A stretch of DNA of 45,693 bases from Chiloscyllium plagiosum (taxonomy: Eukaryota). A program made the translations under genes and the position numbers. The stretch covers positions 11,296,955 through 11,342,647 of the forward strand of contig NC_057751.1 in assembly GCF_004010195.1 (NCBI RefSeq), written 5' to 3'. Under the pieces are notes generated by a model, which ran no database searches, was not told the origin of the DNA, and saw only the letters and a program-made list of their open reading frames with translations. This document shows positions 12,101 through 40,265 of this stretch, in pieces. How positions within the stretch are numbered: position 1 is the stretch's first letter; each line of letters begins with the position of its first letter.

Positions 12101-15100
12101 GTGTCCGATATACACACTCTCCATAACAAAGGCAGTATCCCACATACACACACACTCCTTAGCAAAGGCAGTATCCCAGATACACACACTCCACAGTAAA
12201 GGCAGTGTCCTATATACACACACTCCATAACAAAGGCAGTGTCCTATATACATACTCTATGTCAAAGGCAGTATCCCATATACACACACTCCATAGCAAA
12301 GGCAGTATCCCATATACACACACTCCAGAACAAAGGCAGTTTCCCACATACACACACACTCCATAGCAAAGGCAGTGTCCTATATACACACTCTATGTCA
12401 AAGGCAGTATCCCACAAACACACACACTCCTTAGCAAAGGCAGTATCCCAGATACACACACTCCATAGCAAAGGCAGTGTCCTATATACACACTCTATGT
12501 CAAAGGCAGTATCCCATATACACACACTCCATAACAAAGGCAGTATCACACATATACACACACTCCATAGCAAAGGCAGTCTCCAAGATATACACACTCC
12601 ATAGCAAAGGCAGTATCCCAGATACACACACACCATAACAAAGGCAGTCTCCCATATACACACTCTATAGCAACGGCAGTATCCCAGATACACACACACA
12701 CACCAGAGCAAGGCAGTATCACATAAACACACTCCATAGTAAAGGCAGTGTCCCATATACACACACTCCATAGCACAGGCAGTATCCCATATACACACTC
12801 TATATCAAAGGCAGTATCCCGTATACACACACTCCATAGCAAAGGCATTATCCCACATACACACACTGCACAGCAAAGGCGGTGTCCCATATACACACAC
12901 TCCATAGCAAAGGCAGTATCCCATATACAGACACTCCATATCAAAGTAGGTATCCCATATACACACACTCTGTAGCAACGGCAGTATCCCAGATACACAC
13001 ACTCCATAGTAAAGGCAGTATCCCAGATTCACACACTCTATATCAAAGGCAGTATCCAATATACACACACTCCAAAGCAAAGGCAGTATTGCATATACAC
13101 ACACTCCATAACAAAGGCAGAATCCCATATACACACACTCCAATGCAAAGGCAGTATCCAAGATATGCAGACTCCATAACAAAGGCAGTATCACATATAC
13201 ACACACTCCATAGCAATGGCAGTATCCAAGATACACACACTCCATAGCAAAGGCAGTATCCCATAAATACACTCCATAGCAAAGGCAGTGTCCCATATAC
13301 ACACTCCATATCAAAGTAGGTATCCCATATACACACACTCCGTAGCAAAAGCAGTATCCCATATACACACACTGCATAGAAAAGGCAGTATCCCATATAC
13401 ACACAACCCATAGCAAAGACAGTATCCTAGATACACACACTCCATAGCAAAAGCAGTGTCCTATATACACATTCTATATCAAAGGCAGTATCCCATATAC
13501 ACACGCTCCAAAGCAAAGGCAGTATTGCAGATACACACACTCCATAAGAAAGGCAGTATCCCATATACACACAGTCCATAGCAAAGATGGTATCCCAGAT
13601 ACACAAACTCCATAGCAAGGCAGTATCCCATGGACACACACTCCATAGCAAAGGCAACATCCCATATACACGCCCGATATCAAAGGCAGTATCCAATATA
13701 CACACACTCCATAGCAAAGGCAGTATCCCAAATACACACACTCCATAGCAAAGGCAGTATCCCACATACACACACGCCATAGCAAAGGCAGTATCCCATA
13801 TACACACACTCCATAACAAAGGCAGTATCCCACATACACACACTCCATAGCAAAGGCAGTATCACACATACACACACTGCATAGAAAAGGCAGTATCCCA
13901 TATACACACACCCCATATCAAAGTAGGTATCCCATATTCACACACTCCGTAGCAAAAGCAGTATCCCATATACACACTCTATATCAAAGGCAGTATCCCA
14001 CATACACACACTCCATAACAAAGGCAGTATCCCACATACACACACACTCCATAGCAAAGGCAGTATCCTATATACACACTCTATATCAAAGGCAGTATCC
14101 CATTTACACATATTCCATAGCAAATTCAGTATCCCATATACACACTCTATATCAAAGGCAGTATCCCATATACACACTCTATATCAAAGACTGTATCCCA
14201 TATACACACACTCTATATCAAAGGCAGTATCCCATATACACACCAAAGCAAAGGCAGTATCGCAGATACACATACTCCATAACAAAGGCAGTATCCCATA
14301 TACACGCTATCGATAACAAAGGCAGTATCCAATATACACACACTCCATAGCAAAGGCAGTATCCAAGATATACAGACTCCATAGCAAAGGCATATCCCAC
14401 ATACACACACTCCATAGCAACGGCAGTTTCCAAGATACACACACTCCATAACAAAGTAGGTATTCCCTATACACACACTCCATAGCAAAGGTAGTATCCC
14501 ATGTACACACACTCCATTAGCAAAGGCAGAGTCCCATATACACACACTCCATAGGAAAAGCAGTGTCCCATATACACACTCTATATCAAAGGCAGTATCC
14601 CATATACACATACTCCAAAGCAAAGGCAGTATCCCATATACACACACTCCATAGCAAAGGCAGTATCCAAGATATACAGACTCCATAGCAAAGGCATATC
14701 CCACATACACACACTCCATAGCAACGGCAGTTTCCAAGATACACACACTCCATAACAAAGTAGGTATTCCCTATACACACACTCCATAGCAAAGGTAGTA
14801 TCCCATATACACACTCTATATCAAAGGCAGTATCCCATATACACATACTCCAAAGCAAAGGCAGTATCCCATATACACACACTCCATAGTAAAGGCAGTA
14901 TCCCAGATACACACACTCCATAGCAAAGGCAGTATCCCAGATACACGCACACTCCATAGCAAAGCCAGTATCCCGTATATGCACTCTATATCAATGGCAG
15001 TGTCCCATATACACACACTCCATAACAAAGGTAGTATCCCATATACACATACTCCATAGCAAAGGCAGTATCCCAAATACACACATTCCATAGCACTCTA

Positions 15101-17080
15101 TATCAATGGCAGTATCCCATATGCACACATTCCATAGCAATGGCAGTATCCCATGTGCACACACTCCATAGTAAAGGCATATCCCACATACACACTCTCC
15201 ATAGCAAAGGCAGTATCAAAGGTACACGTACTCCATAACAAAGTAGGTATTCCATATATACACACTCCATAGCAAAAGCAGTATCCCATATACACACACT
15301 CCATATCAAAGGTAGTATCCCATATACAAACACTCCATAGCAAAGGCAGTATCCCATGTGCACACACTCCATAACAAAGGCATATCCCACATACACAGAC
15401 ACTCCATAGCAAAAGCAGTATCCCATATACTCAAATTCCATAAGGCAGTATCCCATATACAAACACTCCATATCAAAGGCAGTATCCCATATACAAACAC
15501 TCCATATCAAAGGCAGTATCCCATGTGCACACACTCCATAACAAAGCCAGTATCCAAGATACGCACTCTATATCAAAGGCAGTATCCCACATACACACAT
15601 TCCATAGCAAAGGCAGTATCCCAGATACACATACTCCATATCAAAGGCAGTATTCCACGTGCACACACTCCATAGCAAAGGCAGTATCCCAGATACACAC
15701 ATACTCCATATCAAAGGCTGTATCCCATATACACACACTCCATAACAAAGCCAGTATCCAAGATACGCACTCTATATCAAAGGCAATATCCCATATACAC
15801 ACATTCCATAGCAAAGGCACTATCCAAGATACACATACTCCATAGCAAAGGCAGTATCCCACATGCTCATACTCCATAGAAAAGGCAGTATCCCAAATAC
15901 ACACACTCCCTAGCAAAGGCAGTAACCCAGATACATATACTCCATAACAAAGGTAGTATCCCATATACACATACTCCATAGCAAAGGCAGTATCCCAGAT
16001 ACACACACTCCATAGCAAAGGCAATATCCCATATACACACACTCCATAACAAAGGTAGTGTCCCAGATACACACACTCCATAGCAAAGACAGTATCCCAT
16101 AAACAACACTCCATAGCAAGGCAGTATCCCATATACACACACTCCATAGCAAAGGCAATATCCCATATACACACACTCCATAACAAAGGTAGTGTCCCAG
16201 ATACACACACTCCATAGCAAAGACAGTATCCCATAAACAACACTCCATAGCAAGGCAGTATCCCATATACACACACTCCATAGCAAAGGCAGTATCCCAA
16301 ATACACACATTCCATAGCACTCTATATCAATGGCAGTATCCCATATGCACACATTCCATAGCAATGGCAGTATCCCAGATACACACACTCCATAGTAAAG
16401 GCATATCCCACATACACACCCTCCATAGCAAAGGCAGTATCAAAGATACACGTACTCCATAACAAAGTAGGTATTCCATAAACACACACTCCATAGCAAA
16501 AGCAGTATCCCATATACACACACTCCATGGCAAAGGCAGTATCCCATATGCACACACACCCCATAACAAAGGCATATCCCACATACACAGACACTCCATA
16601 GCAAAAGCAGTATCCCATATACTCACATTCCATAGCAAAGGCAGTATCCCATATACACACTCCATATCAAAGTAGGTATTCCATATACACACACTCCACA
16701 GCAAAGCAGTATCCCATATACACACACTCCATAACAAAGGCATATCCCACATACACAGACACTCCATAGCAAAGGCTGTATTCAAGATACACACACTCAA
16801 TAGCAAAGGCAATATCCCAGATATACACACTCCATAGCAAAGGCTGTATCCCATATCCACACACTCCATAACAAAGGTAGTATCCCAGATACACAAACTC
16901 CATAACAAAGGCAGTATCCCATATACACACATTCCATAAGAAAGGTAGTGTCCCAGATACACACACTCCTTTGCAAAGCCAGTATCCCATATCCACACAC
17001 TCCATAACAAAGGTAGTATCCCAGATACACACACTCCTTAGCAAAGGCAGTATCCCATATACACACACTCCACAGCAAAA
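9181..17080. repeat. Satellite array, 34-bp consensus GGCAGTATCCCATATACACACACTCCATAGCAAA, roughly 230 diverged units
   Basis: Period read directly (GGCAGTATCC at 9287 and 9321). Unit length varies, mostly 32/34/36 bp, through CA copy number. Confidence 0.98.
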
Positions 17081-24673: not shown

Positions 24674-25158
24674 TGGAATAACTCCATACAAGCTGGTGCC
24701 CCATCACCAAGTCACCCTTCATCTCCACAGGTGGAAAGCCCTTGGAACTGCTCCTGCTTGTTCAGAGTGAACTAGAACACTCTTGTTTTTTTTTTCTTTT
24801 TTTTTTGTAGAAACCTCGACTCTGATCCAGTTCCCTCAGAGTCAGCTCTCTGAGTGAACAGAACCTCTGACACTCGGGTTTTTTTTTAAAACCCCCACAC
24901 GACCGCCTAACTGCGGTAGTGCTTATTTTTTCCCCAGCACCCATGTTGTTGTGTGCGTGCAGGTGTGAGACACAGTGAAAGACACAACGTGCACGAATCT
25001 TTCTTCAAATTTCCACCACCAGGAAGAAAGGAAACACCCAAGTGGCCAGTAACACTCTTGTTTCTATCTGTCAGCCAGGGCTCCCTGACTGGGTGAAACA
25101 AATAGTTCTGATCAGGGAACTCAGATTCCATACCATCCACCTGGCTGACCCATTTCCA
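24674..25158 (-). mobile_element. Solo-LTR-like element (TG...CA) hosting a Tx1 insertion
   Basis: The reverse complement GAATCTGAGTTCCCTGAT...CAGGGAGCCCTGGCTGACAGATAGAAAC...GGGTGACTTGGTGA...GGAGTTATTCCA aligns with 33917-34004 plus 35484-35927. Confidence 0.7.
24789..25050 (-). mobile_element. 5'-truncated Tx1-clade retrotransposon 3' UTR, transduced LTR segment and poly(A)
   Basis: 24888-25050 matches the 3' UTR at 34204-34365. Perfect 13-bp TSD AACACTCTTGTTT at 24776-24788 and 25051-25063. Two poly(T) tracts on the plus strand. Confidence 0.85.
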
Positions 25159-26214
25159 ATCATTTCAGTAGAATTTCAGAAATGGTCTTTCAGCAATGGA
25201 TCAAAAAGACAAGTGATTGGTACATCTCTGAATCCCATACATTGCAGTATTTAGTCTTGACATGGAAAAAGCCAGTGTTATTTAGAAGCCCAAAGCTGAA
25301 CGCAGATCATAACCTTCTTCATCTTTGAGCCCAAATGCCTCAATGTGAGCAGAAAAATCACACAATTAAAGACGGGCCACTCAGCCGCTCCTTCTTATTC
25401 CTGTCAAGAGAAGAGCCCTGAACTCGTCATTCTTTCCTGTCAGCTCAAAGCCCTCGGTTGGAGTTGGACAATGATAAAAGAGGCTGCCCCTAGAAAACCA
25501 ACAGGAATGGGGTCCCTCTTGGTGAATGAGCAGCTGCAACGCTATTTGAGGCATGCAGTTTGTTTGTGACTCAGTCACGCTGAGGCCAGCCTGACAAAAT
25601 GCAGCAAAAACTCAACAGAAAAGCAGTCTCAAAGATGCGGCCTTAGAAAGATTATAAACTTTTTTTCATAACCAGTGCTATTTTTGGAGTAGTGCACAAC
25701 TTCAGGGAACTGCACATATTGATCCACAAAGTATCAGAGAATTTAGACACTATTTATTATGTCAATAGTTTGAACTCTTGCCTGTTCGTTGATCTTGTGC
25801 CTGCATTTTAATCATCTGGCAATTAAACCCTTTTACAGAGAACACTCAATTTGCTCGTAAAGTGAACGCACATTCTCACGACTGCAGACTCAAGGCAGGA
25901 ATGATTAAAAACTGACTGCTTTCTTCACAGCATTTGAGCTAGAGCTTGGGTTGAAAATAGAGAATCTGTAAACCATACCCCAGTGTTTTATCCTGATTAT
26001 CTTGGGACCAAAGAATAAAGACATGGTTTACCCCTCGAGAAATGAGGTCTTCCCTCACAATGGTCATTACATTCGGGGAAACTCTCTGTCAGTAGAAATA
26101 ATCAACTTCCTTGGAATGAGTACACTGATTCTGTCACATGGGAATATTGCCCGCAGGTATTTCACTGTCAGTTGGTCTACCACAGTTATAACTGCTGTCT
26201 ATCAGGATTGTAAT

Positions 26215-27200
26215 AGAGTTACAACTAGTCTCTGCTGGTCTCGTCACAGAGCTACACTGGTCTCTGCTGGATAGTCACAGAGCTATAACTGGTCTCTTCT
26301 GGTATAGTGACAGAGCTACACTGTATCTGCTGGTATAGTCACAGAGCTCCAACTGGTCTCTGCTGGTATAGTGACGGAGCTGCAACTAGTCTCTGTTGGA
26401 TCATCACAGAGCTACAACTGGTCTCTGCTGAATAGTCACAGACCAAAACTGGTCTCTGCTGGATAGTCACAGAGATACAACTGGTCTCAGCTGGTATAGT
26501 GACAGAGCTACAATTGGCCTCTGCTGGTATAGCGACAGAGCTACCCTGGTCTCTGCTGATATAGTCACAGAACCCCAACTAGTCTCTGCTGGTATAGTCA
26601 CAGAACTCTCATAGTATCATCACAGAATTACAACTGGTCTCTGCTGGTATAGTCACAGAGCTACACTGGTCTCTGCTGGAATGTCACAGAACTACAACTG
26701 GTCTCTGCTGGAATGTCACAGAGCTACAGCTGGTCTCTGCTGGATAGTTACAGAGATACAACTGGTCTCAGCTAGTATAGTGACAGAGCTACAATTGGCC
26801 TCTGCTGGTATAGCGACAGAGCTACACTGGTGTCTGGTGATATAGTCACAGAACTCCAACTGGTCTCTGCTGGTATAGTCACAGAGCTACACTGGTCTCT
26901 GCTAGATAGTCACAGAGCTACACTGATCTCTGCTGGATAGTCATAGAGCTACACTGGTCTCTTGTGGTATAGTCACAGAACTCAAATTAGTCTCTCATAG
27001 TATCATCACAGCTACACTGGTCTTTGCTGGATAGTCACAGAGGTACAACTGGTCTCTGCTGGTATAGTCACAGAGCTACACTGGTCTCTGCTGGATAGCC
27101 GCAGAGCTACACTGGTCTCTGCTGGATAGTCAGAGATACAACTGGTCTCTGCTGGTATAGTGACAGAGATATAACTGTTGAATACTCATAGAACTACAAA
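26215..27200. repeat. Minisatellite, 31-33 bp unit CTAC(A)ACTGGTCTCTGCTGG(T)ATAGTCACAGAG, ~30 copies
   Basis: Directly visible tandem periodicity with degenerate edges. Confidence 0.97.
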
Positions 27201-28164
27201 TGGCCATTTCTGGATTGGTTACAGAGTGACCACTGATGATAGTGGATGTTATGTTTTGCTCGAATGCTTCCTTACTGGTGATATTCCAAGTGGAATGCAT
27301 GAGCACTGATGCTGGGTCGAGTGACTGTGGTCACCCATGCAGGATTGGGGCTAAATCAGCCCTGATTTACTGTCTGTCTGTTGGAGATCCCCCTTGCTGA
27401 CTTGCAGACCAACAGAAATTTCCCAGCCACAATGCTGCCTGGTATTAATGAATAGATGCAGGACTCAAAATCCTAAACAGTCTCATTTGTGGTCCTCGTG
27501 ACTCAGCCCAACTGCACAGAATGCTTTGAACATAGCAGGAGGAGGCCATTCAGCCCTTCCTGCCTGGTACAACATAAAAAATGTTCATGGCTGATCATCC
27601 GACTCAGTACCTTGTAGAAACATAGGGAACAGGAGTGGGCCTGCTGTGAATTTCATTAACTGAGTGCCTCCTTCAGAGAAACAGACCCCAGTGCTTCTTT
27701 CCAAGAATTTGTCATTGTTCTCATTAGACACAAGAGTGCAGAGACCTCAAAAAATGTCGTTAAGTTCTGATGTGGGCTGGTGAATTGTAACAGCTGCATT
27801 CTGGACTGCTTCTCAATCATCCTGTGCCCTGACGTCAATGAGAAACAAGATTCATTCAAGGTGCAAAACAGCGCTGGCTGGCATGCTTTTAAATCATTGG
27901 GTTGAGTTGTTCCTGAATTCAGGAGGTGATTAAGTTTATCCCAAGGGGGAGCTGCTTCTCACCCATGGGAAGCAGATTGCAGGCACATTGTCGCCTGTGA
28001 TTACAGGATATTGTGCACAGTTGGGTTCAGTTTCCAAATCTGTTCCCCCTGCACGGAGCCTGAGATATCAGCAGCACAGTGTGCACTCTGAAAACTCCAG
28101 TAAGAGATTTAATCCTGGAAGTGGTGCCATTTGAGACTGTGATTCTTTCGTGGGCAGGTTTAAG

Positions 28165-28322
28165 TTCATGAGGGGCATGGATAGGATAAATAGACAAAGC
28201 CTTTTCCCTGGGGTGGGGGTGTCCAGAACTAGAGGGCATAGGTTTATAGTGAGAGGTGAAAAGATATAAAAGAGACCTAGGGGGCAATTTTATCACTCGG
28301 AGGGTGGTACGTGTATGGAATC
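28165..28322 (+). mobile_element. CR1 ORF2 C-terminal fragment
   Basis: CATGAGGGGCATGGATAGGATAAATAGACAAAGCC...AGAACTAGAGGGCATAGGTTT, same family as 6615-7145. Confidence 0.8.
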
Positions 28323-28455
28323 CCTGCATTGATTGAATATCAGTCACCATCTTCTGTCTGTTCACTATCCTTAAATGTGAGCTCAGCCAAAACTCTGCTG
28401 CCTTTCTCCTGACTCAGATGAAGTCGCCTTTCTTACATTGTTGTGGACATGTTCG

Positions 28456-28782
28456 AATCAGTGCGGAAGCAGGCCATTCAGCGCATCAAGTCTACACTAA
28501 CCCTCTGGGCAGTATCCTCCCCCATCCCTCCAACTCCAGACCCATCCCATCCCTGTAACCCTGCATTCCCCATGGCTCACCTACCTCACCTGCACATCCC
28601 AGGACACTATGGGGCAATTTAGCCTGGCCACTCCACCCTCACCTACACATCTGTGGACTGTGGGAGGAAACCCACACAGGCACAGGGAGAACGTGCAAAT
28701 TCTACATAGACATTCACCTGAGGGTGAGATTGAACCCAGGTCCCTGGTGCTGTGAGGCAGCAGTGCTAACCACTGAGCCACC
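28456..28782 (-). mobile_element. HE1-like V-SINE (tRNA head, V-domain, CR1-derived tail)
   Basis: On the minus strand: A-box TGGCTCAGTGG, B-box GGTTCAATCTC and V-core TTTGCACGTTCTCCCTGTG..GGGTTTCCTCCCACAGTCCA. Confidence 0.85.
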
Positions 28783-28999
28783 TGATGTCTTCACTAGATT
28801 CGTTGCCACTGGAAATCTTCTCAGCAACTGGTACTGTGAGAGGCAGGAAGCCCACACAAAGTCTTCAGCACAACATTGGCTCAGGCTTGACAAACAGTGG
28901 CATCGCACTTTCCACCATGGTGGGTGATGTCGGTTAAACCCCTTCAGGTACTATCTGCCTTATTCAAACCCTTCCCCCTCCCACCCCAGAGCTTGCTGA

Positions 29000-29230
29000 T
29001 TAACATTGGTTCTCAGCCTGCCTCACCTCGCTTTTAAAATCCTTCTTCCTGTGTTCAAGCCCTCACCTCTCCCTCTCCATCTCATCTCCTTCAACCCCAC
29101 AGTGCTTCGAGATCTCGGTGCTCCTCTAATCCTGACCTCTTGAGCTCTCTTGCTGTCTGCCCTGGGTCCTAAGCTTTGGAGTTCCTTTGCTGTAACTCTC
29201 CACTTTTCACCCTTTCTCTATTCTTTTTTT
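29000..29230 (+). mobile_element. Old L2-like LINE 3' remnant
   Basis: TTTTAAAATCCTTCTTCCTGTGTTCAAG...CTGGGTCCTAAGCTTTGGAGTTCC, with FKILL-VFK and PKLW-like motifs. Confidence 0.5.
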
Positions 29231-29334
29231 TTAAGAAGACTCTTCTTGGAACTCTGCCGAACCTTTTGGTTGTCTTCTGTCCTTGGAGTGAAATAATGAA
29301 TTGATTTTCCTTCTCATGATGCCTCTCTGTGCTG

Positions 29335-29355
29335 TGTTGTTGTTGTTGTTGTTGT
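29335..29355. repeat. (TGT)n microsatellite
   Basis: Seen directly. Confidence 0.9.
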
Positions 29356-29579
29356 CATGGTTCATGTCAGTAAGGCCATAAAGCTGTAAGTTCCAGAGGA
29401 TCTTCTCTCCAGCCTCCCAAGACATGCTGCTTCCTAGGAAGATCGATTGGCTCCAGGTAGTACCTCAGATTGTAGACAGCATCCTTCGTTGCAGCACGAG
29501 TTAATGGACTACAATGACTTGATGGAAGCACTCTTGTCTGACCATCATAATGGAGACAGCATGATAAATCTGAAACATC

Positions 29580-29990
29580 AACGCTGTATCTCTTCCCTGT
29601 CAGGAATTTCAACGAGTGAAGGGAGAATCTCATGGAAACATACAAACTCATGAGATTGGACAGGCTAGATGTGCAAGGAATTTTCCTGATGTTGGGAAAG
29701 TCCAGAACTAGACAATCTAATAATAAGGGGTAAACCATTCAGAACTGAGATGAGGAAGAGTTCCTTCACTCAGAGAGCTGTGAACCTGTGGAATTGTCTC
29801 CCACAGAAAATTGTAGGGACTGGTTCGATAGAGATAGCCATGAGGGAGTCAGACATGGCCCTTGTGACTAAAGGGATCACGAGGGAGTGGCTGAAAATGA
29901 GAGTGGGATACTGAAACTACATGATCAGATTGAGAGGTGGAGTAGACTCAAAGGGCAGAATGGCCTTCCCCTGTCCTATTTTCTGTGCAT
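29580..29990 (+). mobile_element. CR1 3' end
   Basis: ACTGAGATGAGGAAGAGTTCCTTCACTCAGAGAGCTGTGAACCTGTGGAAT...GACTCAAAGGGCAGAATGGCCT; the reverse of 18420-18790. Confidence 0.8.
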
Positions 29991-30666
29991 GTATTTCCAA
30001 CATTTTCTCCTTCATGTGCCTTGCAGATGAATGTGCATTGCAGACTGGACCAGAGATGAGATTCAGAACTCCTATTTCAATATTGGGTCCAATTCCAACA
30101 ATGCCACGTAGTGAGGAGGGGAGCCTGAGGGGAATATTCCTCTTCAAGATGTTTAAATGGTGACACTAAGTTGGACAGCACATGAGGTTACATGGCTGTA
30201 ATCGTAAGGACACACAGGGACATAGACAGATGAAATGGTTGGGCCAAGCCATGGCAAATGCAGTTGAATCAAAGTGGGAGGTTTCCTCACCAGAAAGATA
30301 CATTGGAGTATCTTCTCAATATTGAGTGACTAGAAATGATAGAGGAGCAGGAATACTCAAGTCCAGAAGCTACTAAATGTTCACGGACAGCAACGTGAAT
30401 TTACATAGCACCTTCGATGCAGGAAACATCCCAAGGTGTTTCGCAGGAGAGCAAGAAGATCAACTTCAGTCAGTGTCATTATCGCTATCACCACCACAAA
30501 TGGTCCTGTATCCCAGTTGTTGTTTGTGGGATCTTTCAGTGCACAAACTGATGTCAGTGCTTACTTACATAATGGAAGTGACCCTGCCTTGAAGGGTAAC
30601 TCACGGCCTGTACACTTTGAAACAACCCCAGGAGGTATCATGGTGGCATATGAATGCAAATATGTA

Positions 30667-30688
30667 TCTCTCTCTCTCTCTCTCTCTC
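30667..30688. repeat. (TC)11 microsatellite
   Basis: Seen directly. Confidence 0.9.
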
Positions 30689-31789
30689 GTTTCCTCTCCC
30701 ACATTATAACATTCAGGAGGAAGGAAAAGATAAATTATCTGTGAATTATTTGATTGAACGCTCGCACAGCATGAAAACCTTTAGTACAGTCCATCTGCAT
30801 CTGTGTCCATCATGGGCTGGATACTTCCCAGATGTTCAACACACTGCACGAAAAGACGCCAGGATTGGCCTAAATATAGATTTCTTGCCTCATCTTTTTC
30901 TCATTCACTGCAGTCTCATTGTGGGTTTGTCTGCCACAAACCACATCCACGAGGTAACATCTGGCATCTTCCTGTCAGTGGAACGTCACCCAATGCCAAG
31001 TTAATTCTTTGGCAATCTTGAACATTTCAAGACATTTTCCCTTCCTTGCCCAGAAGCTTGGTCACAGCAATTTGCCTCTTGGTGTGATGGTACACATGAG
31101 CGACCTGGTTTGAGTGGACACGTGAGTGTGGCCTGCTCTGTCCCATGTAGGGAGTGGGGTGGGGGTGGGGGGGCGGAAATCCTCTGTTGTGTATTGTAGT
31201 TGCACACACAGTGCGTTCCAATCAGGATGAACTGCTTACAGTGCAGACATGGGCAGAGGCTATCATTTCTCCCCAGTGACATTACAAGTTGAAGTGTTGA
31301 AGCTTAGACTTCTGTAACTTTTTTTAAAAATGCGTGTTCATACGGAGGATGTGGCCTTACTGGCTGGGACAACATTTATTTCCCATCACTAACTGTGCTT
31401 GAGAAGATAACGATGAGCTGCTGTCTTGCACTGAAGGCGCACTCACTCTGTAAAATTGTGAGGCAGCAGCGCCAGTGTATTGGAGGATTGATGTTTGCGG
31501 GTAATCCCAATTGGGGTTTTGAAAGAATTCAGAAAGCCGGGTGACAAGGGAAGTAGGGGTTGGAGTTCAGAGATCTGAAGTAGGATTGGCTTCAACATGG
31601 ATAAATATTAAGGTCCACAATATTCCCGAGAACTCAGTTAATTTCCCTGAAAAGCAATTTTTTAAAAGCAACTCGCAAACAAGATTTAAAGCCCAGTGTG
31701 GGCTTTTGTTATCTTTAAGATGTGTTTCGAAATTGCTGACCTATTGTTTCAGATGGTAACATGCACATCTCTCAGTCTGAAAGGTTGTG

Positions 31790-32110
31790 CTCAGTTCCAG
31801 CTGGGAGGACAGACATCTGGGCTGGTCAGAGAGGGTGCTGCTCTGGCACGGCTAACGTTTCTCTGGATGTCACATCAAACTGCTCCTGGTGTATCTGCTG
31901 GACGTCAAATATTCTGTAAGTGGTAATCCTCACCAGTACTTATCCTTCAATCCACATCACTAAATACAGATTGGCTGGTCATTACTACAGTGCCATTTCT
32001 GGCAGCCCCTTGGACACACGACTTGGTTGCTGATTTTCCTCACATGATGATAGGGTCTACACTTCACCAGCACTTCCAAGGTGCCTTGAAATGTTGTGCA
32101 AGGCACTGCA
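31790..32110 (+). mobile_element. Old DeuSINE-like remnant
   Basis: TTTCTCTGGATGTCACATCAAACTG...CACTAAATACAGATTGGCTGGTCATTA...TACACTTCA. Confidence 0.45.
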
Positions 32111-33531
32111 TCGAGGTTGGGAATGGGGTAGAGGTGGTGAAGGAAGGAGCTGGTGGGTGAAACCCCAAAAGGGGTCACTGGGTGAGCTTTTGAAAATGTG
32201 GGCTCTGAGGCACTGACGGTCACTTCAGGGATCTGACTGAGTACTAACAACAACCATGTCCTGCACCAACACAGAGGGCTCCCACTGACACAGGATCGCA
32301 CATGTTCTCCCAGCTCACTGAGCCCCTCACTCCCTGGTTCTCACTTGGGGGCTGTGACCATTTCCAAAACAGCAGAAACGTTTGGGAGGTGCCACTGGAG
32401 ATAACCACAGGACTTTCTTCAGCTGGTCTGTTCCCTGAGTGAAAGCAGTGGCTAGAACTCAGGAGCTTGTGGAGAGCATTAGACCCGAGTGGAAGGAACC
32501 TCAATACCCAGTTGAGGGCGAGGGGGTTTGGTCAAGTGTGGAGTGTGAAGCATTGCATCAACCCCAGAGTTTGTCCAATCTGCAGAATGCAGCATGAACA
32601 GGTTGCACAGATCTGTGCAACAGGTCTGTGTGATGGTGAGTTATGTGGACCGTTACTTATGGGTGCTTCTCAGTGCTTTGAGCACCTTGCCAGCTCAGCC
32701 TGTGGTTGCATTCAGTAATATGATGCTGGTGGTGATGCAGGAAATAGCAGAGGCGTTGCCACCCTCAGTGTAAGTGGAAAGGGAGAGCTGACCCTCACCT
32801 CAGGGGTAGTGACAGGAGACGTGAGCACAGCATCTCATCGGCAGCTCAGGGAATGTGGCTGAGGCTGGTCAGAGGGAATAGCTGGAGGAGCACATCCCCA
32901 CTGTTGTCACTCCTCCAGGGACAGCTTTCAGTTGCCTGACCCTCTCCCACTGTCCGTTCCTCTTCCTTCATCACACACCTTTAACCGTACCCCTTTGATC
33001 AACATTCTCATCGTCTCCCCTCACCGTCACTCAAACCTTACCGAAACGCTCAGTGGTTGGGCAGGGAGGGAAAGATTGGTCAAAAGCTGTTGAGGAAGAA
33101 AGCAATGAAGAACACTTCCACTCCAGTGGGGAATGCAGTCAGAAACAGGGCAATGTGGGGTGTGCAAGGTGTGGATCCATTTTCCCAATCCCAGCATCGC
33201 CCCCTCCCCACCACCCCCACCTGAAGTAGGCGGCTGGTTTTGTGATGTAGACCATTCCTTGGCACTCTAGGGCACATCCTCCTGCCAGTGTTGAAACCAT
33301 TCAGTATAACTCACTTCTTTGTCAGCTCACTATGGTGGTCCCCATGTGGACATGCAGATGGAGATGCCATGTAAAGCAATTGCCCAACAGTGGTGGGCCA
33401 ACAGTCCAAATGTTGTCCACAATAAGCTCCTGTGTTCAATATGTTCACTGCTGACTCATGCTGCTGTTTGCCACCTTTGTCCCAATGAGGCCATCCTTGG
33501 CACTGTCATATCTTCAAAACGCTTGGGTGAG

Positions 33532-33690
33532 TGAAATAACTGTGGAGAAGCTAGTATCCCATCAACAAGTCACCCTTTAGTTATGTGTGCACATTACCAA
33601 CGCTCTTACCGATCAGCTCCAAGCCAGTTCCTAGTATGGAGAGACTCTCTGAGTGACCTAGGTTAACAGATTCACCTGATCCTTGTTCCA
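33532..33690 (-). mobile_element. Degenerate, internally deleted copy of the solo-LTR-like family, without Tx1
   Basis: The reverse complement starts TGGAACAAGG and ends AAAGGGTGACTTGTTGATGGGATACTAGCTTC..GTTATTTCA. Confidence 0.55.
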
Positions 33691-34018
33691 ATCTCTGCAG
33701 AGAGTAAAATGAATGCACCTGCAGCAGAATTCCCAGGGGATCAGACCAGAAAGGCCTTGGGGGTGAGCATCACAGTGGGCATGGCCCTGTGTTTTGAAGT
33801 ATTTAAGATGGAGTCAGACCAGTCTGTCTCATGTGCTGGTTTTACTGGTTTAGCCTTCTGGAAGGGAACTAAAGAGGGTTCTGACGAGTCACAGTGGATG
33901 TGAAATGTATCACAATTGTAACAAGGTGGACCTTACAGAATCTGAGTTCCCTAATTGAGGCTGTTAATCTGGTCCAATCAGGGAGCCCTGGCTGACAGAT
34001 AAAATGGTAGGTGCGGGG

Positions 34019-34135
34019 GTGTCCTTGGAGAAGGAGCACGCGGTGTCGACCAACACCCTGGAGGTGTTCAGGGAGAGGTGGGGGCCGCGGGGAGTAGAGT
34101 GCATCATTTCTCCCTCCAACTCTATTTTGATTTAG
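34019..34135 (+). pseudogene. Tx1-like ORF2 C-terminal fragment
   Basis: VSLEKEHAVSTNTLEVFRERWGPRGVECIISPSNSILI* by manual translation; resembles the Tx1 ORF2 C-terminus (recalled). Confidence 0.7.
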
Positions 34136-35071
34136 TCCCTACCCTCCCCTTCACTGTTTTTGATCACACAACATTGCCCTTTGATGTGAAGGGCAGTGTT
34201 TGTCACTGGCCACCCGGGTGTTTTCCTATCTTCCTGGTGGTGGAAATTGAATAAAGATTCGTGGACCTTGTGTCTTTCACTGTGTCTCACACCTGTGCAC
34301 ACACACACCATGGGTGCTGGGGATAAAATAAGCACTACCGCACTTAGGTGGTAGTGTGGGGGTTAAATTTTAAAAAAAAAGAATAAAAAATAAATAAATA
34401 AATAAACAAACAGGAAATAAGCACTACCGCACTTAGGTGATAGTGTGGGGGTTAAAAGGAAAAAGAAGAGAAGAACAGGGGTGTTTGAATAAAGATTCGT
34501 GCACTTTGTGTTTTTCACTGTGTCTCACACCTGCACACACACACCATGGGTGCTGGGGATAAAATAAGCACTACCGCACTTAGGTGGTAGTGTGGGGGTT
34601 AAATTTTAAAAAAAAAGAATAAAAAATAAATAAATAAATAAACAAACAGGAAATAAGCACTACCGCACTTAGGTGATAGTGTGGGGGTTAAAAGGAAAAA
34701 GAAGAGAAGAACAGGGGTGTTTGAATAAAGATTCGTGCACTTTGTGTCTTTCACTGTGTCTCACACCTGCACACACACACCATGGGTGCTGGGGATAAAA
34801 TAAGCACTACCGCACTTAGGTGGTAGTGTGGGGGTTAAATAAAAAGAAAAAAAAAAATAAATAAATAAACAGAAGGTTCTTCCTGGTGGTGGAAATTGAA
34901 TAAAAGATTGGTGCACTTTGTGTCTTTCACTGTGTCTCACACCTGCACACACACACCATGGGTGCTGGGGAAAAAATAAGCACTACCGCACTTAGGTGGT
35001 AGTGTGGGGGTTAAAACAAAAAAAAATAAGAAAAAAAAAAGAAGAAGAAAAAAAAAAGAAGAAAACAAAGT

Positions 35072-35206
35072 GACTATGTTCGAGCCCGGGTGTCCTTGGA
35101 GAAGGAGCACGCGGTGTCGACCAACACCCTGGAGTTGTTCAGGGAGAGGTGGGGGCCACGGGGAGTGGAGTGCATCATTTCCTCCTCCAACTCTATTTTG
35201 ATTTAG
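35072..35206 (+). pseudogene. Tx1-like ORF2 C-terminal fragment
   Basis: DYVRARVSLEKEHAVSTNTLELFRERWGPRGVECIISSSNSILI*; the frame is conserved with the 34019 copy. Confidence 0.7.
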
Positions 35207-35570
35207 TCCCTACCCTCCCCTTCAGTGTTTTGATCACACAGCATTGCTCTTCGATGTGAAGGGCACTGCTTGTCACTGGCCACTCGGGTGTTTTCCTATC
35301 TTCCTGGTGGTGGAAATTGATATAAAGACTCGTAGATCTTGCGTCTTTCACTGTGTCTCACACCTGCACACACACAACATGGGAGCTGGGGAAAAAATAA
35401 GCACTACCGCAGTTAGGTAGTAGTGTGGGGGTAAAGAAAAAGAAGTAAAAAAAAGAAAAAACAGGGGTGTCTGAAAAAAAAGAACAGAGATGTCAGACTT
35501 CTTGTTCACTCTGAGAAAGCTGGCTCTGTGGGAGCTGGATCAGTTAATCCTTTTCCACGTGTAAATAAAA

Positions 35571-35873
35571 ATAAATCCCTCGAACTCAGCACCACCATAA
35601 ATCCATCGAATTCAGCACCGCCTTCCTAACCTGCAATCTTCTTCCTGACCTCTCCGCCCCCACCCCACTCCGGCCTATCACCCTCACCTTGACCTCCCTC
35701 CACCTATCGCAATTCCAGCACCCCTCCCCCAAGTCCCTCCTCCCTACCTTTTATCTTAGCCTGCTGGACACACTTTCCTCATTCCTGAAGAAGGGCTTAT
35801 GCCCGAAACGTCGATTCTCCTGCTCCTTGGATGCTGCCTGACCTGCTGCGCTTTTCCAGCAACACATTTTCAG
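35571..35873 (+). mobile_element. Penelope-like 3' fragment inserted in the LTR
   Basis: C-rich tract followed by CTGAAGAAGGGCTTATGCCCGAAACGTCG. Flanked by GTAAATAAA at 35561-35569 and 35875-35883 (9-bp TSD). Confidence 0.75.
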
Positions 35874-35944
35874 GGTAAATAAAGGGTAACCTGGTGACAC
35901 AGTACCAGCCTCTGTGGAGTTTTTAAACAACGTTAACCCCCATG

Positions 35945-39405: not shown

Positions 39406-40188
39406 ACCTGTGTGTTCATCCCGAAGTCCTGGTGAAGATTGGTTCTCAGTCACCACCTGAGAAATCTGCTTATTGTGTTCTCGCTGTGTTTTGGATCTTG
39501 CTGTGCTGGCTGGTGTATTCTCTCTGATTGCTTTCTTCCCACAATGCCTGAGGTACGAAGATGGCCGGCTGCTTGCAGCAGGAACTGGGAACATCCTGAG
39601 AGGAATGAGTTCCAAGGGACTAACGTTTGCCCGCTATACAGTCTGCATGCATTTGGCAGAGGATCACTCAGTGGGGCTTCACTGGGTGAACAGCTGAAAG
39701 AACTGAACAGGAAGAACTGTCAATGTCAGTCCTCATCAAACTGGAGCAGGCCTCTCCATCCCTGATAAGGAAGGGAGCTGGAAACTAACTGAATCCAGTC
39801 AGTCATGAATAATAACGGGGGGTCCTTAAAATGCTTTGTGAAAGAAAAACTGGAATTGGGATTCAACTTTACGATATTTCAACTCCTGCACAGAAACTGA
39901 CAAGTTGCCTCATTTATTCATGTCCCTACCTGACAATCCATATCCTTCTGGTCCTTTCTCCCTCATGTTCCTTTAGGTTCTTTGTATTTCTGTGAAATGC
40001 TAAAATCCTATTCTCCAATTTGTGATCACAAGTTCTACATTCTCAACACCATTTGAGTAAAGACACTTCCTCCTGAACTCCCCCAGTGGCTTTATTACTA
40101 ACCATCTCATGCTCCCAGTCCCTTCACGTGTCAATGACATCTCCATGATTATCCTGTCGACACCACCTCCCTGTAACAATGCAGTGAT

Positions 40189-40265
40189 TGGAGCAAGGTC
40201 CAGGTGGATCTCATTGAGTCCGACATTCCTTATTACGGCTGTTAACATGGGCCAATCAGGGAGTC
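40189..40265 (+). mobile_element. Old 5' fragment of the solo-LTR-like family, without Tx1
   Basis: TGGAGCAAGGTCCAGGTGGATCTC...GGCTGTTAACATGGGCCAATCAGGGAG aligns with 33917-33986. Confidence 0.55.

What the first reader, a model, noticed from the sequence alone, without database searches (positions are those of the whole stretch)
24674..35927. Sequence-specific Tx1-clade retrotransposon that targets one site in an LTR-like element
Seen: every Tx1-like 3' end in the window lies inside a copy of the same ~230-bp solo-LTR-like family, at two loci on opposite strands (24674-25158 minus, 33917-35927 plus). Each comes right after CCCTGGCTGACAGATA(G/A)AAA, at an AAACA(G/A)GRGTGT site, and is sense to the LTR. 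The 5' truncation points differ (25050 vs ~34013), so the loci are independent insertions rather than copies of one composite. Two Tx1-free LTR relics (33532, 40189) also exist, though both are degenerate at the target site. Established: Tx1-clade L1s are often target-specific (Tx1L/Tx2L into Xenopus DNA transposons, Keno into U2 snRNA genes, Dewa near tRNA genes, Kibi/Koshi into microsatellites). Inference: this family specialises on an LTR, a target class I do not recall being described, though it may already be catalogued.
Basis: partly seen in the sequence, partly recalled or inferred. Interest (0 to 1): 0.85.

Follow-up and report, generated by a model that had tools for sequence, protein, structure and literature searches.

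The report
LTR-homing Tx1-type LINE retrotransposon
A jumping gene of the Tx1 group of LINEs has repeatedly inserted at one exact spot, next to the TATA box, of an older and very abundant LTR repeat; this is a clear new example of a behaviour already described for Tx1 elements in crocodilians.

Summary
Both LINE loci in the window (24675-25167 minus, 33908-35924 plus) sit in copies of one 236-bp LTR family, sense to it, at one site.

- **Target specificity:** of 35 other loci fetched with the LINE tail alone, 21 show a canonical LTR/LINE junction under strict rules, and about 27 under looser ones. Seventeen left junctions lie at 17 different LINE positions.
- **Target site:** GACAGATATAAACAGGAGTGT^CAGA. 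The target-site duplication is about 11-16 bp. One LTR carries a poly(A)-only insertion between duplicated sites.
- **Empty sites:** they are abundant. 3722 sites match within two mismatches, against 1 for the reversed control.
- **Clade:** genomic copies give an ORF2 with an APE endonuclease and RT, 53% identical to Xenopus Tx1L.
- **Host repeat:** it is a real LTR, with TG..CA ends and perfect 5-bp duplications in 6 of 29 copies (control 0).
- **New details:**
  - The plus-strand locus is a stack of seven truncated copies.
  - The minus-strand locus carries a transduced LTR piece.
  - Stacking is common genome-wide.

The novelty claim fails. Kojima 2015 (PMC4494074) already reports crocodilian Tx1 families that prefer LTR retrotransposons, and tandem insertions sandwiching a duplication. 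Verdict: a new member of a known kind, of modest interest.

The parts
24674..24776 (-). Copy A: resident LTR right part, downstream of the target site (profile about 117-235). The LTR 3' end is at 24674.
   Evidence: nhmmer LTR profile 103-235 at 24790-24675. LTR ends and the 4/5 flanking duplication TCTAC/TGTAC come.
24777..24788 (-). Copy A: 3' copy of the target-site duplication (AAACAAGAGTGT read on the minus strand).
   Evidence: Direct reading. The same 12-mer occurs at 25052-25063.
24786..24806 (-). Copy A: second poly(A) tract. Its last A's overlap the duplication.
   Evidence: Direct reading.
24807..24878 (-). Copy A: 72-nt piece of an LTR right half (profile about 105-180) lying between two poly(A) tracts. 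Read as 3' transduction from a source copy sitting in another LTR.
   Evidence: nhmmer 105-180 at 24881-24806 and reading. Similar extra right-half pieces occur in L014, L032, L058, L060 and L070.
24879..24887 (-). Copy A: first poly(A) tract.
   Evidence: Direct reading.
24888..25051 (-). Copy A: 5'-truncated Tx1-type LINE 3' UTR, the last ~164 nt.
   Evidence: BLAST to the window tail and to genomic LINE references, 87-94%.
25052..25167 (-). Copy A: LTR left half. It includes the 5' copy of the duplication (25052-25063), the TATA-like GATAGAAA and a CCAAT-like box. The LTR 5' end is at 25167.
   Evidence: nhmmer profile 3-133 at 25165-25041.
33532..33760 (-). Copy C: diverged LTR without a LINE (empty site).
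   Evidence: nhmmer profile 116-236 at 33652-33532. The left part was read by eye.
33908..34003 (+). Copy B: LTR left half, ending ...CCCTGGCTGACAGATAAAA.
   Evidence: nhmmer profile 20-105 at 33918-34003. The start was estimated by eye.
34004..34411 (+). Copy B piece 1: LINE ORF2 end plus 3' UTR (last ~345 nt), then an A-rich tail ending AAACAAACAGG.
   Evidence: BLAST 34017-34363, 92.8% to 35083-35432.
34412..34877 (+). Copy B pieces 2-5: alternating 38-nt and 116-nt LINE tails, each followed by an A-rich tract and a target motif (AACAGGGGTGT or AAACAGG). They are partly a 236-bp tandem duplication.
   Evidence: BLAST hits 34415-34452, 34485-34599, 34651-34688 and 34721-34835. TRF gives period 236, 2.7 copies, 96% matches.
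34878..35058 (+). Copy B piece 6: 134-nt LINE tail plus a long A-rich tract ending AAAACAAAGTG.
   Evidence: BLAST 34878-35011.
35059..35458 (+). Copy B piece 7: LINE ORF2 end plus 3' UTR (last ~372 nt), then an A-rich tail.
35459..35482 (+). Copy B: target motif AAACAGGGGTGTCTGA followed by a short A run. This is an insert-less unit.
   Evidence: Reading. TRF period 23 at 35451-35494.
35483..35569 (+). Copy B: LTR right half, from GAACAGAGATGTCAGAC to the AATAAA signal.
   Evidence: nhmmer profile 91-192 at 35468-35569.
35570..35874 (+). Unrelated SINE-like insertion inside the LTR right half, flanked by the duplication GTAAATAAA (35561-35569 and 35875-35883).
   Evidence: Reading. Very high depth on both strands in reads and contigs.
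35875..35924 (+). Copy B: end of the LTR (profile 181-233).
   Evidence: nhmmer 35872-35924.
40182..40265 (+). Copy D: LTR left fragment only (profile 3-89), without a LINE.
   Evidence: nhmmer; reading.

Best explanation
A Tx1-clade non-LTR retrotransposon (a LINE with an APE-type endonuclease and a reverse transcriptase, closest named relative Xenopus Tx1L) homes to one site of an older, abundant 236-bp LTR family. The site is 5'-GACAGATATAAACAGGAGTGT^CAGA-3', at the LTR's TATA-like box. Insertion is always sense to the LTR.

**Inferred mechanism.**

1. The endonuclease nicks the bottom strand in the T-rich complement of the ATAAAC stretch. The poly(A) hides the exact base.
2. The freed 3' end primes reverse transcription on the poly(A) tail.
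3. The top strand is cut after GTGT, 11-16 nt downstream. This gives a long target-site duplication that recreates the site on both sides of the insert.
4. Because the site is recreated, the same LTR is hit again and again. This produces head-to-tail stacks of 5'-truncated copies separated by poly(A) plus the local duplication.
5. The stacks grow further by duplication of whole units.
6. Source copies sitting in LTRs give read-through transcripts, which explains the transduced LTR right-half pieces.

**Shown:** the site, orientation, duplication, independence of insertions, clade, and the LTR nature of the host.

**Inferred:** that the endonuclease alone sets the specificity, the exact nick positions, and the order of events in stacks.
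For: **Clade.**

- L076 has RVT_1 (1.9e-36) and, in the upstream frame, Exo_endo_phos (7.5e-12).
- It is 53% identical over 809 aa to Xenopus Tx1L (803 bits). Human L1 ORF2p scores 177 bits.
- Tx1L homology reaches aa 1292 of 1308 directly before the tail in L023, L034, L022, L027 and others.

**Site.**

- LTR left halves end at profile 109-121 and right halves start at 99-109.
- Strict count over 35 loci: 15 with a left junction, 19 with a right junction, 13 with both, 21 with either. About 27 qualify when partial or deleted halves are included (and reading).
- All junction halves are on the LINE's strand. The only strong opposite-strand LTR (in L006) is not adjacent.

**Independence.**

- Seventeen left junctions lie at -224 to -689, all different.
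- 142 pieces give 103 distinct truncation points.
- LTR copies are 81-86% alike. LINE tails average 92% alike pairwise and 95% to their majority sequence.
- DNA contigs of run X15 show at least 10 more joints from the LTR left half, through a target motif, to different LINE positions.

**Target comes from the host, not the LINE.**

- The pattern GACAGATARRAACAGGAGTGTCAGA within two mismatches gives 3722 matches against 1 for the control.
- The TATAAA variant has 1094 exact sites, 488 of them followed by CAGA.
- The motif also lies 5' of inserts as a duplication.
- The motif variants between stacked pieces match each locus's own LTR, for example L014 and L010.
- L042 has a 16-nt A-rich insert between duplicated ACAAAAAGGAGTGT.

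**Host is an LTR.**

- Its ends are TGTAG...TTTCA.
- Perfect 5-bp duplications flank 6 of 29 copies and 4/5 matches flank 3 more. A shifted control gives 0.
- An internal flank beginning GTGG is shared by L012, L088, L095, L099 and L042.
Against: - No full-length copy with both junctions was recovered, so the 5' end, ORF1 and promoter are unknown.
- The long ORF2 copy (L076) is linked to the window's tail only through intermediate copies. Part of that locus is withheld.
- Eight of 35 loci show no LTR within 1.5 kb (L003, L005, L006, L008, L018, L019, L029, L038). At least L006 and one tail of L005 have plainly unrelated 3' flanks, so specificity is not absolute.
- Copy B's outer left junction lacks the duplication.
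- Units with the same truncation point within an array are as diverged from one another as copies at different loci are. Within-array mean is 0.911 and between-array mean is 0.920. Simple late tandem duplication does not explain this well.
- An old composite, LTR 1-121 plus LINE from -631, recurs in at least 9 loci.
- No endonuclease assay or structure bears on how the site is recognised.
Confidence: 0.88

Rival explanations
1. The co-occurrence comes from amplification of one composite. An LTR that once received a LINE fragment was then copied by LTR retrotransposition or segmental duplication. No site-specific LINE insertion is involved.
For: One subfamily does behave this way. The junction of LTR profile 1-121 with the LINE at -631, seen in L002, recurs in at least 9 of the 40 scored matches, at 79-87% identity. 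L047 shares it but has a different upstream flank.
Against: - Seventeen left junctions lie at 17 different LINE positions.
- Flanks outside the LTRs are unrelated.
- LTR copies are more diverged (81-86%) than the LINE tails they hold (about 92%).
- A poly(A)-only footprint with a duplication exists.
- The motif variants between stacked pieces are locus-specific.
Confidence: 0.04
2. The site is chosen mainly by base-pairing, not by a sequence-specific endonuclease. Read-through LINE transcripts carry downstream LTR sequence, and this pairs with the target DNA, as is discussed for some rDNA-specific elements (recalled).
For: Read-through RNAs evidently exist. LTR right-half pieces between two poly(A) tracts occur in window copy A and in L014, L032, L058, L060 and L070.
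Against: - Most inserts carry no transduced piece.
- The motif between stacked units carries the local LTR's variants, not those of a donor.
- A poly(A)-only insertion with a normal duplication needs no LINE or LTR RNA homology.
- The paper on Tx1 targets attributes target choice mainly to the endonuclease (PMC4494074 introduction, passages seen).
Confidence: 0.1
3. AAACAGGAGTGT is the LINE's own 3' terminal sequence, and its neighbourhood to LTRs is a chance effect of LTR abundance.
For: The motif follows many poly(A) tails even when the next sequence is another LINE piece.
Against: - The motif is present in thousands of LINE-free LTRs.
- It lies 5' of inserts as a duplication.
- Some tails lack it entirely, for example L006, L034 and the third tail of L005.
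- Its variants match the local LTR.
Confidence: 0.01

Closest known systems
Tx1L of Xenopus laevis (Tx1 clade), inserted at a specific site of Tx1D, a non-autonomous piggyBac-type DNA transposon
   Same: ORF2 is 53% identical over 809 aa, the best named match. It has an APE endonuclease plus RT. It homes to one site inside another, more abundant mobile element. The target description comes from PMC4494074, introduction.
   Different: The host here is an LTR, not a DNA transposon, and the target sequence is different. Whether Tx1L stacks to this extent was not checked.
[quoted passage not shown]
   Same: Same clade and same class of target. That paper's criterion for target specificity is the target appearing in more than 20% of flanks (section 6). 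It is exceeded here: 21 of 35 loci strictly.
   Different: The host lineage differs. In that paper the crocodilian families group with Keno and Tx1-Mar, whereas this ORF2's best named match is Tx1L. The position within the LTR, the orientation and the duplication of the crocodilian cases sit in supplements I could not read. Whether they also hit a TATA-proximal site is therefore unknown.
Tx1-Mar families and SINEU-3 in Mariner-N4_AMi (Kojima 2015)
   Same: They have a long duplication (16 bp, AGGTTCCCATCAGCAT). The paper notes 'tandem SINEU-3 insertions ... sandwiching a TSD', explained as sequential insertion (section 14). This is the same logic as the stacks here.
   Different: Stacks here are much deeper: up to 15 pieces within 3.2 kb in L018. 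They consist of truncated copies of the LINE itself. Many repeat the same truncation point.
Keno, Kibi, Koshi, Mutsu and Dewa (fish Tx1 families targeting snRNA, rRNA and tRNA genes or microsatellites)
   Same: Same clade and the same principle of sequence-specific insertion. A Tetraodon 'pol-like protein' among the matches is 39% identical. Which named family it belongs to is not known to me.
   Different: Their targets are host multicopy genes or microsatellites, not a mobile element.

Membership tests
Tx1 clade of non-LTR retrotransposons | ORF2 with an N-terminal APE-type endonuclease followed by a reverse transcriptase | tested here: met
   L076 has RVT_1 at 1.9e-36 and Exo_endo_phos at 7.5e-12. 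In that copy the two lie in different frames, so the copy is not intact.
Tx1 clade of non-LTR retrotransposons | The RT/ORF2 sequence groups with Tx1 elements rather than with L1 proper or other clades | tested here: inconclusive
   Similarity strongly favours Tx1. It is 53% identical (803 bits) to Xenopus Tx1L, against 177 bits to human L1 ORF2p and 72 bits or less to R2. No tree with outgroups or Repbase Tx1 families was built.
Tx1 clade of non-LTR retrotransposons | The window's 3' ends belong to that ORF2 | tested here: met
   tblastn of Tx1L reaches aa 1292 of 1308 just upstream of the tail in L023, L034, L022, L027, L005 and others. In the window itself the match is only E 0.078.
Tx1 clade of non-LTR retrotransposons | Target-primed insertion marks: poly(A) or A-rich tail, variable 5' truncation, target-site duplication | tested here: met
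Target-specific Tx1 family (criterion of PMC4494074: the target in more than 20% of flanks) | One kind of sequence flanks a large share of copies, at one position and in one orientation | tested here: met
   Strictly, 21 of 35 loci; about 27 of 35 when partial halves are included. All are on the same strand.
LTR of an LTR retrotransposon (the host repeat) | 5'-TG...CA-3' termini | tested here: met
   The ends are TGTAG...TTTCA in the alignment of 24 copies and in 17 left and 17 right ends.
LTR of an LTR retrotransposon (the host repeat) | Short (4-6 bp) target-site duplication around the LTR | tested here: met
   Perfect 5-bp duplications in 6 of 29 complete copies and 4/5 matches in 3 more. 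A shifted control gives 0 and 0.
LTR of an LTR retrotransposon (the host repeat) | Paired LTRs around an internal region with a primer-binding site, polypurine tract and gag/pol | tested here: inconclusive
   A shared internal flank starting GTGG(C/T) follows the LTR in L012, L088, L095, L099 and L042. Same-strand site pairs lie 4014 and 3743 bp apart. No pair could be fetched and no coding region was seen. The internal part in L012 is interrupted after about 290 bp.
Crocodilian LTR-targeting Tx1 families (Tx1-8_Crp, Tx1-4_AMi) | Sequence relatedness to those families | not testable with these tools
   Their sequences are in Repbase and are not held here. An alligator 'TX1 149 kDa' protein is 40% identical, but its family is unknown.

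The most novel reading that the evidence does not exclude
The LINE does not merely use the LTR as a safe harbour. By inserting in sense immediately beside, and by its duplication re-creating, the LTR's TATA box, it borrows the LTR's U3 promoter. Even promoter-less truncated copies would then be transcribed, and would read through into the LTR right half. This would explain three things: the transduced LTR pieces, the sense-only orientation, and the arrays of units with identical truncation points that are as old as the insertions themselves. Those arrays would come from nascent LTR-driven transcripts of a truncated copy being re-inserted at the adjacent regenerated site, or from end-to-end template jumping. 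The same insertion would also split the LTR's promoter from its transcription start.
Probability: 0.2. Interest if true: 0.55.

Novelty: new member of a known kind. Interest (0 to 1): 0.33.

Why it matters
- It adds a well-resolved case to the list of Tx1 families that parasitise other mobile elements. The case has a single-nucleotide-scale site, an 11-16 bp duplication, a poly(A)-only footprint and thousands of empty targets.
- Its closest named relative is Tx1L, not the crocodilian LTR-targeting families. This suggests the choice of an LTR target arose more than once. That is an inference; no tree was built.
- The defined 25-bp target and the related Tx1L protein make the endonuclease's sequence recognition directly testable.
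- The deep stacks show how a regenerated target can turn a solo LTR into a satellite-like array. This matters for repeat annotation and assembly in large vertebrate genomes.

Tried and rejected
1. **Full-length copy.** Regions beside six tails held no long frames. The long 'open frames' listed partly run through withheld N's. No intact element with both junctions was obtained.
2. **Walking upstream from L002.** The query unknowingly contained the LTR left half, which confounded the walk. It did reveal the recurrent LTR/-631 composite.
3. **The flank ...TTTTGGTTGCACTTCAGTCCCACGCTCCTG... as the LINE 5' end.** Rejected. It is ORF2 3' coding sequence of longer truncated copies.
4. **No empty site among the first loci.** Solved by the genome pattern search.
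5. **TATAAA variant preferentially filled?** 488 of 1094 TATAAA sites are followed by exact CAGA. On contig C1, 13 of 25 AAGAA sites are. There is no clear difference.
   - Of the 26 TATAAA sites on C1 not followed by CAGA, 20 were read: 14 empty variants, 3 LINE, 2 a GC-rich sequence 'X', 1 other.
   - The remaining 6 could not be fetched.
6. **RNA.** No RNA holder was listed. Laying raw reads of a poly(A) single-cell run (X19) gave reads on the tail pieces with a strong strand bias implying sense RNA, for example 242.6 against 11.6 at 34162-34238.
   - 1358 of the 1538 laid reads fit only partly, and they carry fixed differences, so they come from other copies.
   - Oligo-dT priming on the genomic A tracts of passively transcribed sense copies would give the same bias.
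   - Run X20 laid nothing.
   - This is not usable for or against promoter borrowing.
7. **Supplements of PMC4494074.** Not readable.
8. **Earlier scan notes.** None for this place or this sequence.
9. **Literature.** Searches for Tx1 with shark or cartilaginous fish found no description of such a family. One search gave 11 listed papers, none on this. One search gave none on this. One search gave 0 papers. Repbase Reports are not in the library.

Full report
**What is in the window**

The window is a stretch of a 3.56-Gb eukaryotic genome. Two places carry the 3' end of one LINE family.

Copy A (24674-25167, minus strand) reads, in its own orientation:

1. the LTR left half, ending ...CCCTGGCTGACAGATAGAAACAAGAGTGT;
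2. the last ~164 nt of the LINE;
3. a poly(A) tract;
4. a 72-nt piece of an LTR right half;
5. a second poly(A) tract;
6. the sequence CAAGAGTGT, followed by the resident LTR right half.

The 12-mer AAACAAGAGTGT flanks the whole insert as a target-site duplication.

Copy B (33908-35924, plus strand) has the LTR left half ending ...GACAGATAAAA. Seven 5'-truncated LINE pieces follow, holding the last 345, 38, 116, 38, 116, 134 and ~372 nt. Each piece is followed by an A-rich tract and a target motif (AAACAGG, AACAGGGGTGT and the like). After the stack come an insert-less motif plus an A run, and then the LTR right half. That right half is itself split by an unrelated SINE-like insertion with its own duplication, GTAAATAAA. 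Pieces 2-5 are partly a later tandem duplication of period 236, with 96% matches.

Two further LTR copies without a LINE lie at 33532-33760 (minus strand) and 40182-40265 (plus strand, left part only).

**Is the LINE of the Tx1 clade?**

The window alone cannot tell. Xenopus Tx1L against the window gives E 0.078. Genomic copies can.

- A search with an ORF2 C-terminal piece led to L056, which holds a 463-aa frame running into the tail.
- From there a longer copy, L076, was reached. Its 882 readable residues carry RVT_1 (1.9e-36). The frame upstream carries Exo_endo_phos (7.5e-12).
- Its best named match among 2057 proteins is the Xenopus 'Transposon TX1 149 kDa protein', 53% identical over 809 aa. 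Human L1 ORF2p scores only 177 bits and R2 proteins 72 bits or less.
- Tx1L homology also runs to residue 1292 of 1308 immediately upstream of the tail in many loci that were fetched with the tail alone, such as L023, L034, L022 and L027.

The window's 3' ends are therefore the end of a Tx1L-like ORF2 plus its 3' UTR. No tree with outgroups was made.

**Is the insertion site-specific?**

I fetched 36 loci other than the window using only internal tail sequence as the query. One of them, L024, duplicates L007, leaving 35 independent loci.

- **Strict count.** I built a profile of the LTR from 20 LINE-free copies and applied strict rules. The LTR hit had to be on the LINE's strand. It had to end at profile 105-125 just before a LINE piece, or start at 95-112 just after a tail. 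Under these rules 15 loci have a left junction, 19 a right junction, 13 both and 21 either.
- **Looser count.** Counting halves that are deleted or lie slightly off gives about 27 of 35.
- **Exceptions.** Eight loci show none. In several of these the stack fills the fetched stretch. At least L006 and one tail of L005 have plainly unrelated flanks, so specificity is high but not absolute.
- **Independence.** The 17 left junctions lie at 17 different LINE positions, from -224 to -689.
- **Independent data.** DNA contigs of another run of the same species label show at least ten more joints from the LTR left half, through a target motif, to different LINE positions. That run may be the assembly's own sample.

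**The target**

Empty sites are abundant.

| Pattern | Mismatches allowed | Matches |
|---|---|---|
| GACAGATARRAACAGGAGTGTCAGA | up to 2 | 3722 (reversed control: 1) |
| GACAGATATAAACAGGAGTGT | 0 | 1094 |
| GACAGATATAAACAGGAGTGTCAGA | 0 | 488 |
| GACAGATAAGAACAGGAGTGT | 0 | 273 |

The commonest form, GACAGATATAAACAGGAGTGT, contains a canonical TATAAA.

Left halves end after GTGT and right halves begin within the A-rich stretch before CAGG. The duplication is therefore 11-16 bp, and poly(A) hides its 5' edge.

One LTR, in L042, has only 16 A-rich nucleotides between two copies of ACAAAAAGGAGTGT. That is a poly(A)-only insertion, the cleanest footprint of target-primed insertion at this site.

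On contig C1, 47 sites have the exact 21-mer. Of these, 21 are followed by CAGA. I read 20 of the other 26: 14 are empty with variant bases, 3 hold the LINE, 2 hold a GC-rich sequence 'X' and 1 holds something else. Roughly one site in eight is therefore occupied.

**The host repeat is a real LTR**

- Copies begin TGTAG and end TTTCA.
- Of 29 copies with both ends, 6 have a perfect 5-bp flanking duplication and 3 have a 4/5 match. The 4/5 group includes window copy A (TCTAC/TGTAC). A shifted control gives none.
- Several copies are followed by the same internal sequence, beginning GTGG one base after the terminal CA (L012, L088, L095, L099, L042).
- Same-strand sites 4014 and 3743 bp apart occur in the listings. 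They could not be fetched, so the class of the element (ERV, Gypsy or other) remains open.
- The LTR has a CCAAT-like box, the TATAAA at the target and an AATAAA near its end. These are motifs only and their function was not tested.
- LTR copies are 81-86% alike. LINE tails are about 92% alike pairwise and 95% like their majority sequence. The LINE therefore invaded an older LTR population.

**Stacks**

Stacking is the rule rather than the exception. The 35 loci hold 142 LINE pieces with 103 distinct truncation points.

- **Local duplications.** The motif between pieces carries each locus's own LTR variants. L014 has GGACTGT and L010 has CAGGGGAT. These motifs are therefore local duplications and are not brought in by RNA.
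- **Repeated insertion.** Different truncation points within one stack mean repeated insertion into the regenerated site. Kojima gives the same explanation for tandem SINEU-3 copies sandwiching a duplication (PMC4494074, section 14).
- **An open point.** Many stacks also repeat one truncation point: L004 at -365 five to six times, and L014, L016, L018, L028, L030, L032 and L037. Such units are no more alike than copies at different loci (0.911 within against 0.920 between). They therefore arose at or near the time of insertion. Early unit duplication, local re-insertion of the locus's own transcript, and template jumping all remain open.
- **Extra right-half pieces.** Extra LTR right-half pieces followed by poly(A) occur inside stacks, in window copy A, L014, L032, L058, L060 and L070. 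They fit 3' transduction from source copies sitting in LTRs.
- **A composite subfamily.** One old composite, LTR 1-121 fused to the LINE at -631, recurs in at least 9 loci. Some filled LTRs were therefore also propagated as units.

**Mechanism**

What is shown and what is inferred are kept apart here.

- **Shown:** a fixed site and strand, a long duplication, poly(A) tails, variable truncation, and an APE endonuclease plus RT of the Tx1 type.
- **Inferred from the established model of target-primed reverse transcription, and from the statement in PMC4494074 (introduction) that target choice is mainly set by the endonuclease:**
  - The endonuclease nicks the bottom strand at the T-rich complement of ATAAAC.
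  - The T-rich end primes on the poly(A).
  - The top strand is cut after GTGT.

**Comparison and novelty**

The element works like Tx1L in Tx1D and like the crocodilian Tx1 families, and by similarity it belongs to the Tx1 clade.

The target class is not new. Kojima 2015 names two crocodilian families preferring LTR retrotransposons. The details of those cases are in supplements I could not read.

My literature searches found no description of a comparable family in cartilaginous fishes or of a TATA-proximal LTR site. Repbase is not searchable here.

I rate it a new member of a known kind. It is of modest interest as a finding, but it gives a well-defined and testable target.

**Expression**

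The one RNA experiment gave sense-biased reads on the tail pieces. They come mostly from other copies, and oligo-dT priming on genomic A tracts can explain the bias. It decides nothing.

Noticed in passing
window 9183-17079: A 7.9-kb minisatellite: a 34-bp unit (CAGTATCCCATATACACACACTCCATAGCAAAGG) in about 233 copies with 79% matches. It causes the strong C/A skew of this part of the window.
   Followed up: no
window 26215-27177 and 1-432: Two further tandem arrays: a 32-bp unit in about 30 copies, with a 281-bp higher-order period, and a 215-bp unit in 2 copies at 98%.
   Followed up: no
window 35570-35874: A SINE-like element inserted into the LTR right half of copy B, with the duplication GTAAATAAA. 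Its 3' part has by far the highest depth in DNA contigs and in RNA reads, on both strands.
   Followed up: partly
L056 3037-3327 and L075 2-328 (minus strand): A cyclophilin-type (Pro_isomerase) coding remnant lies directly upstream of a 5'-truncated Tx1 copy. It may be a chimeric retrocopy made by template switching.
   Followed up: no
L066 (reverse strand, about 668-862), L050 831-900, L053 1953-2096, L071 588-1107, L029 1783-1836, L109, L113: A GC-rich sequence 'X' with ~100-nt repeated monomers sits at the same LTR target site, directly after the duplication. In L066 it is fused by microhomology to a fragment of the LINE 3' UTR. It is either the LINE's 5' UTR or a non-autonomous partner that shares the target.
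   Followed up: partly
L002 1071-1868 (oriented), L047, and 8 further places listed: An old composite of LTR profile 1-121 fused to the LINE at -631 recurs at 79-87% identity with different outer flanks. This suggests that an LTR carrying a LINE fragment went on being copied.
   Followed up: partly
L081 (G000 C6, two sites 201 bp apart): A local tandem duplication of part of an empty LTR, including its 3' flank.
   Followed up: no
L037, L028, L010, L016, L036 tail ends: Several poly(A) tails end in (TA)n runs before the target motif, for example ATATATATATATATAAAACCAGG. This looks like slippage on the ATATAAAC part of the target during priming.
   Followed up: no
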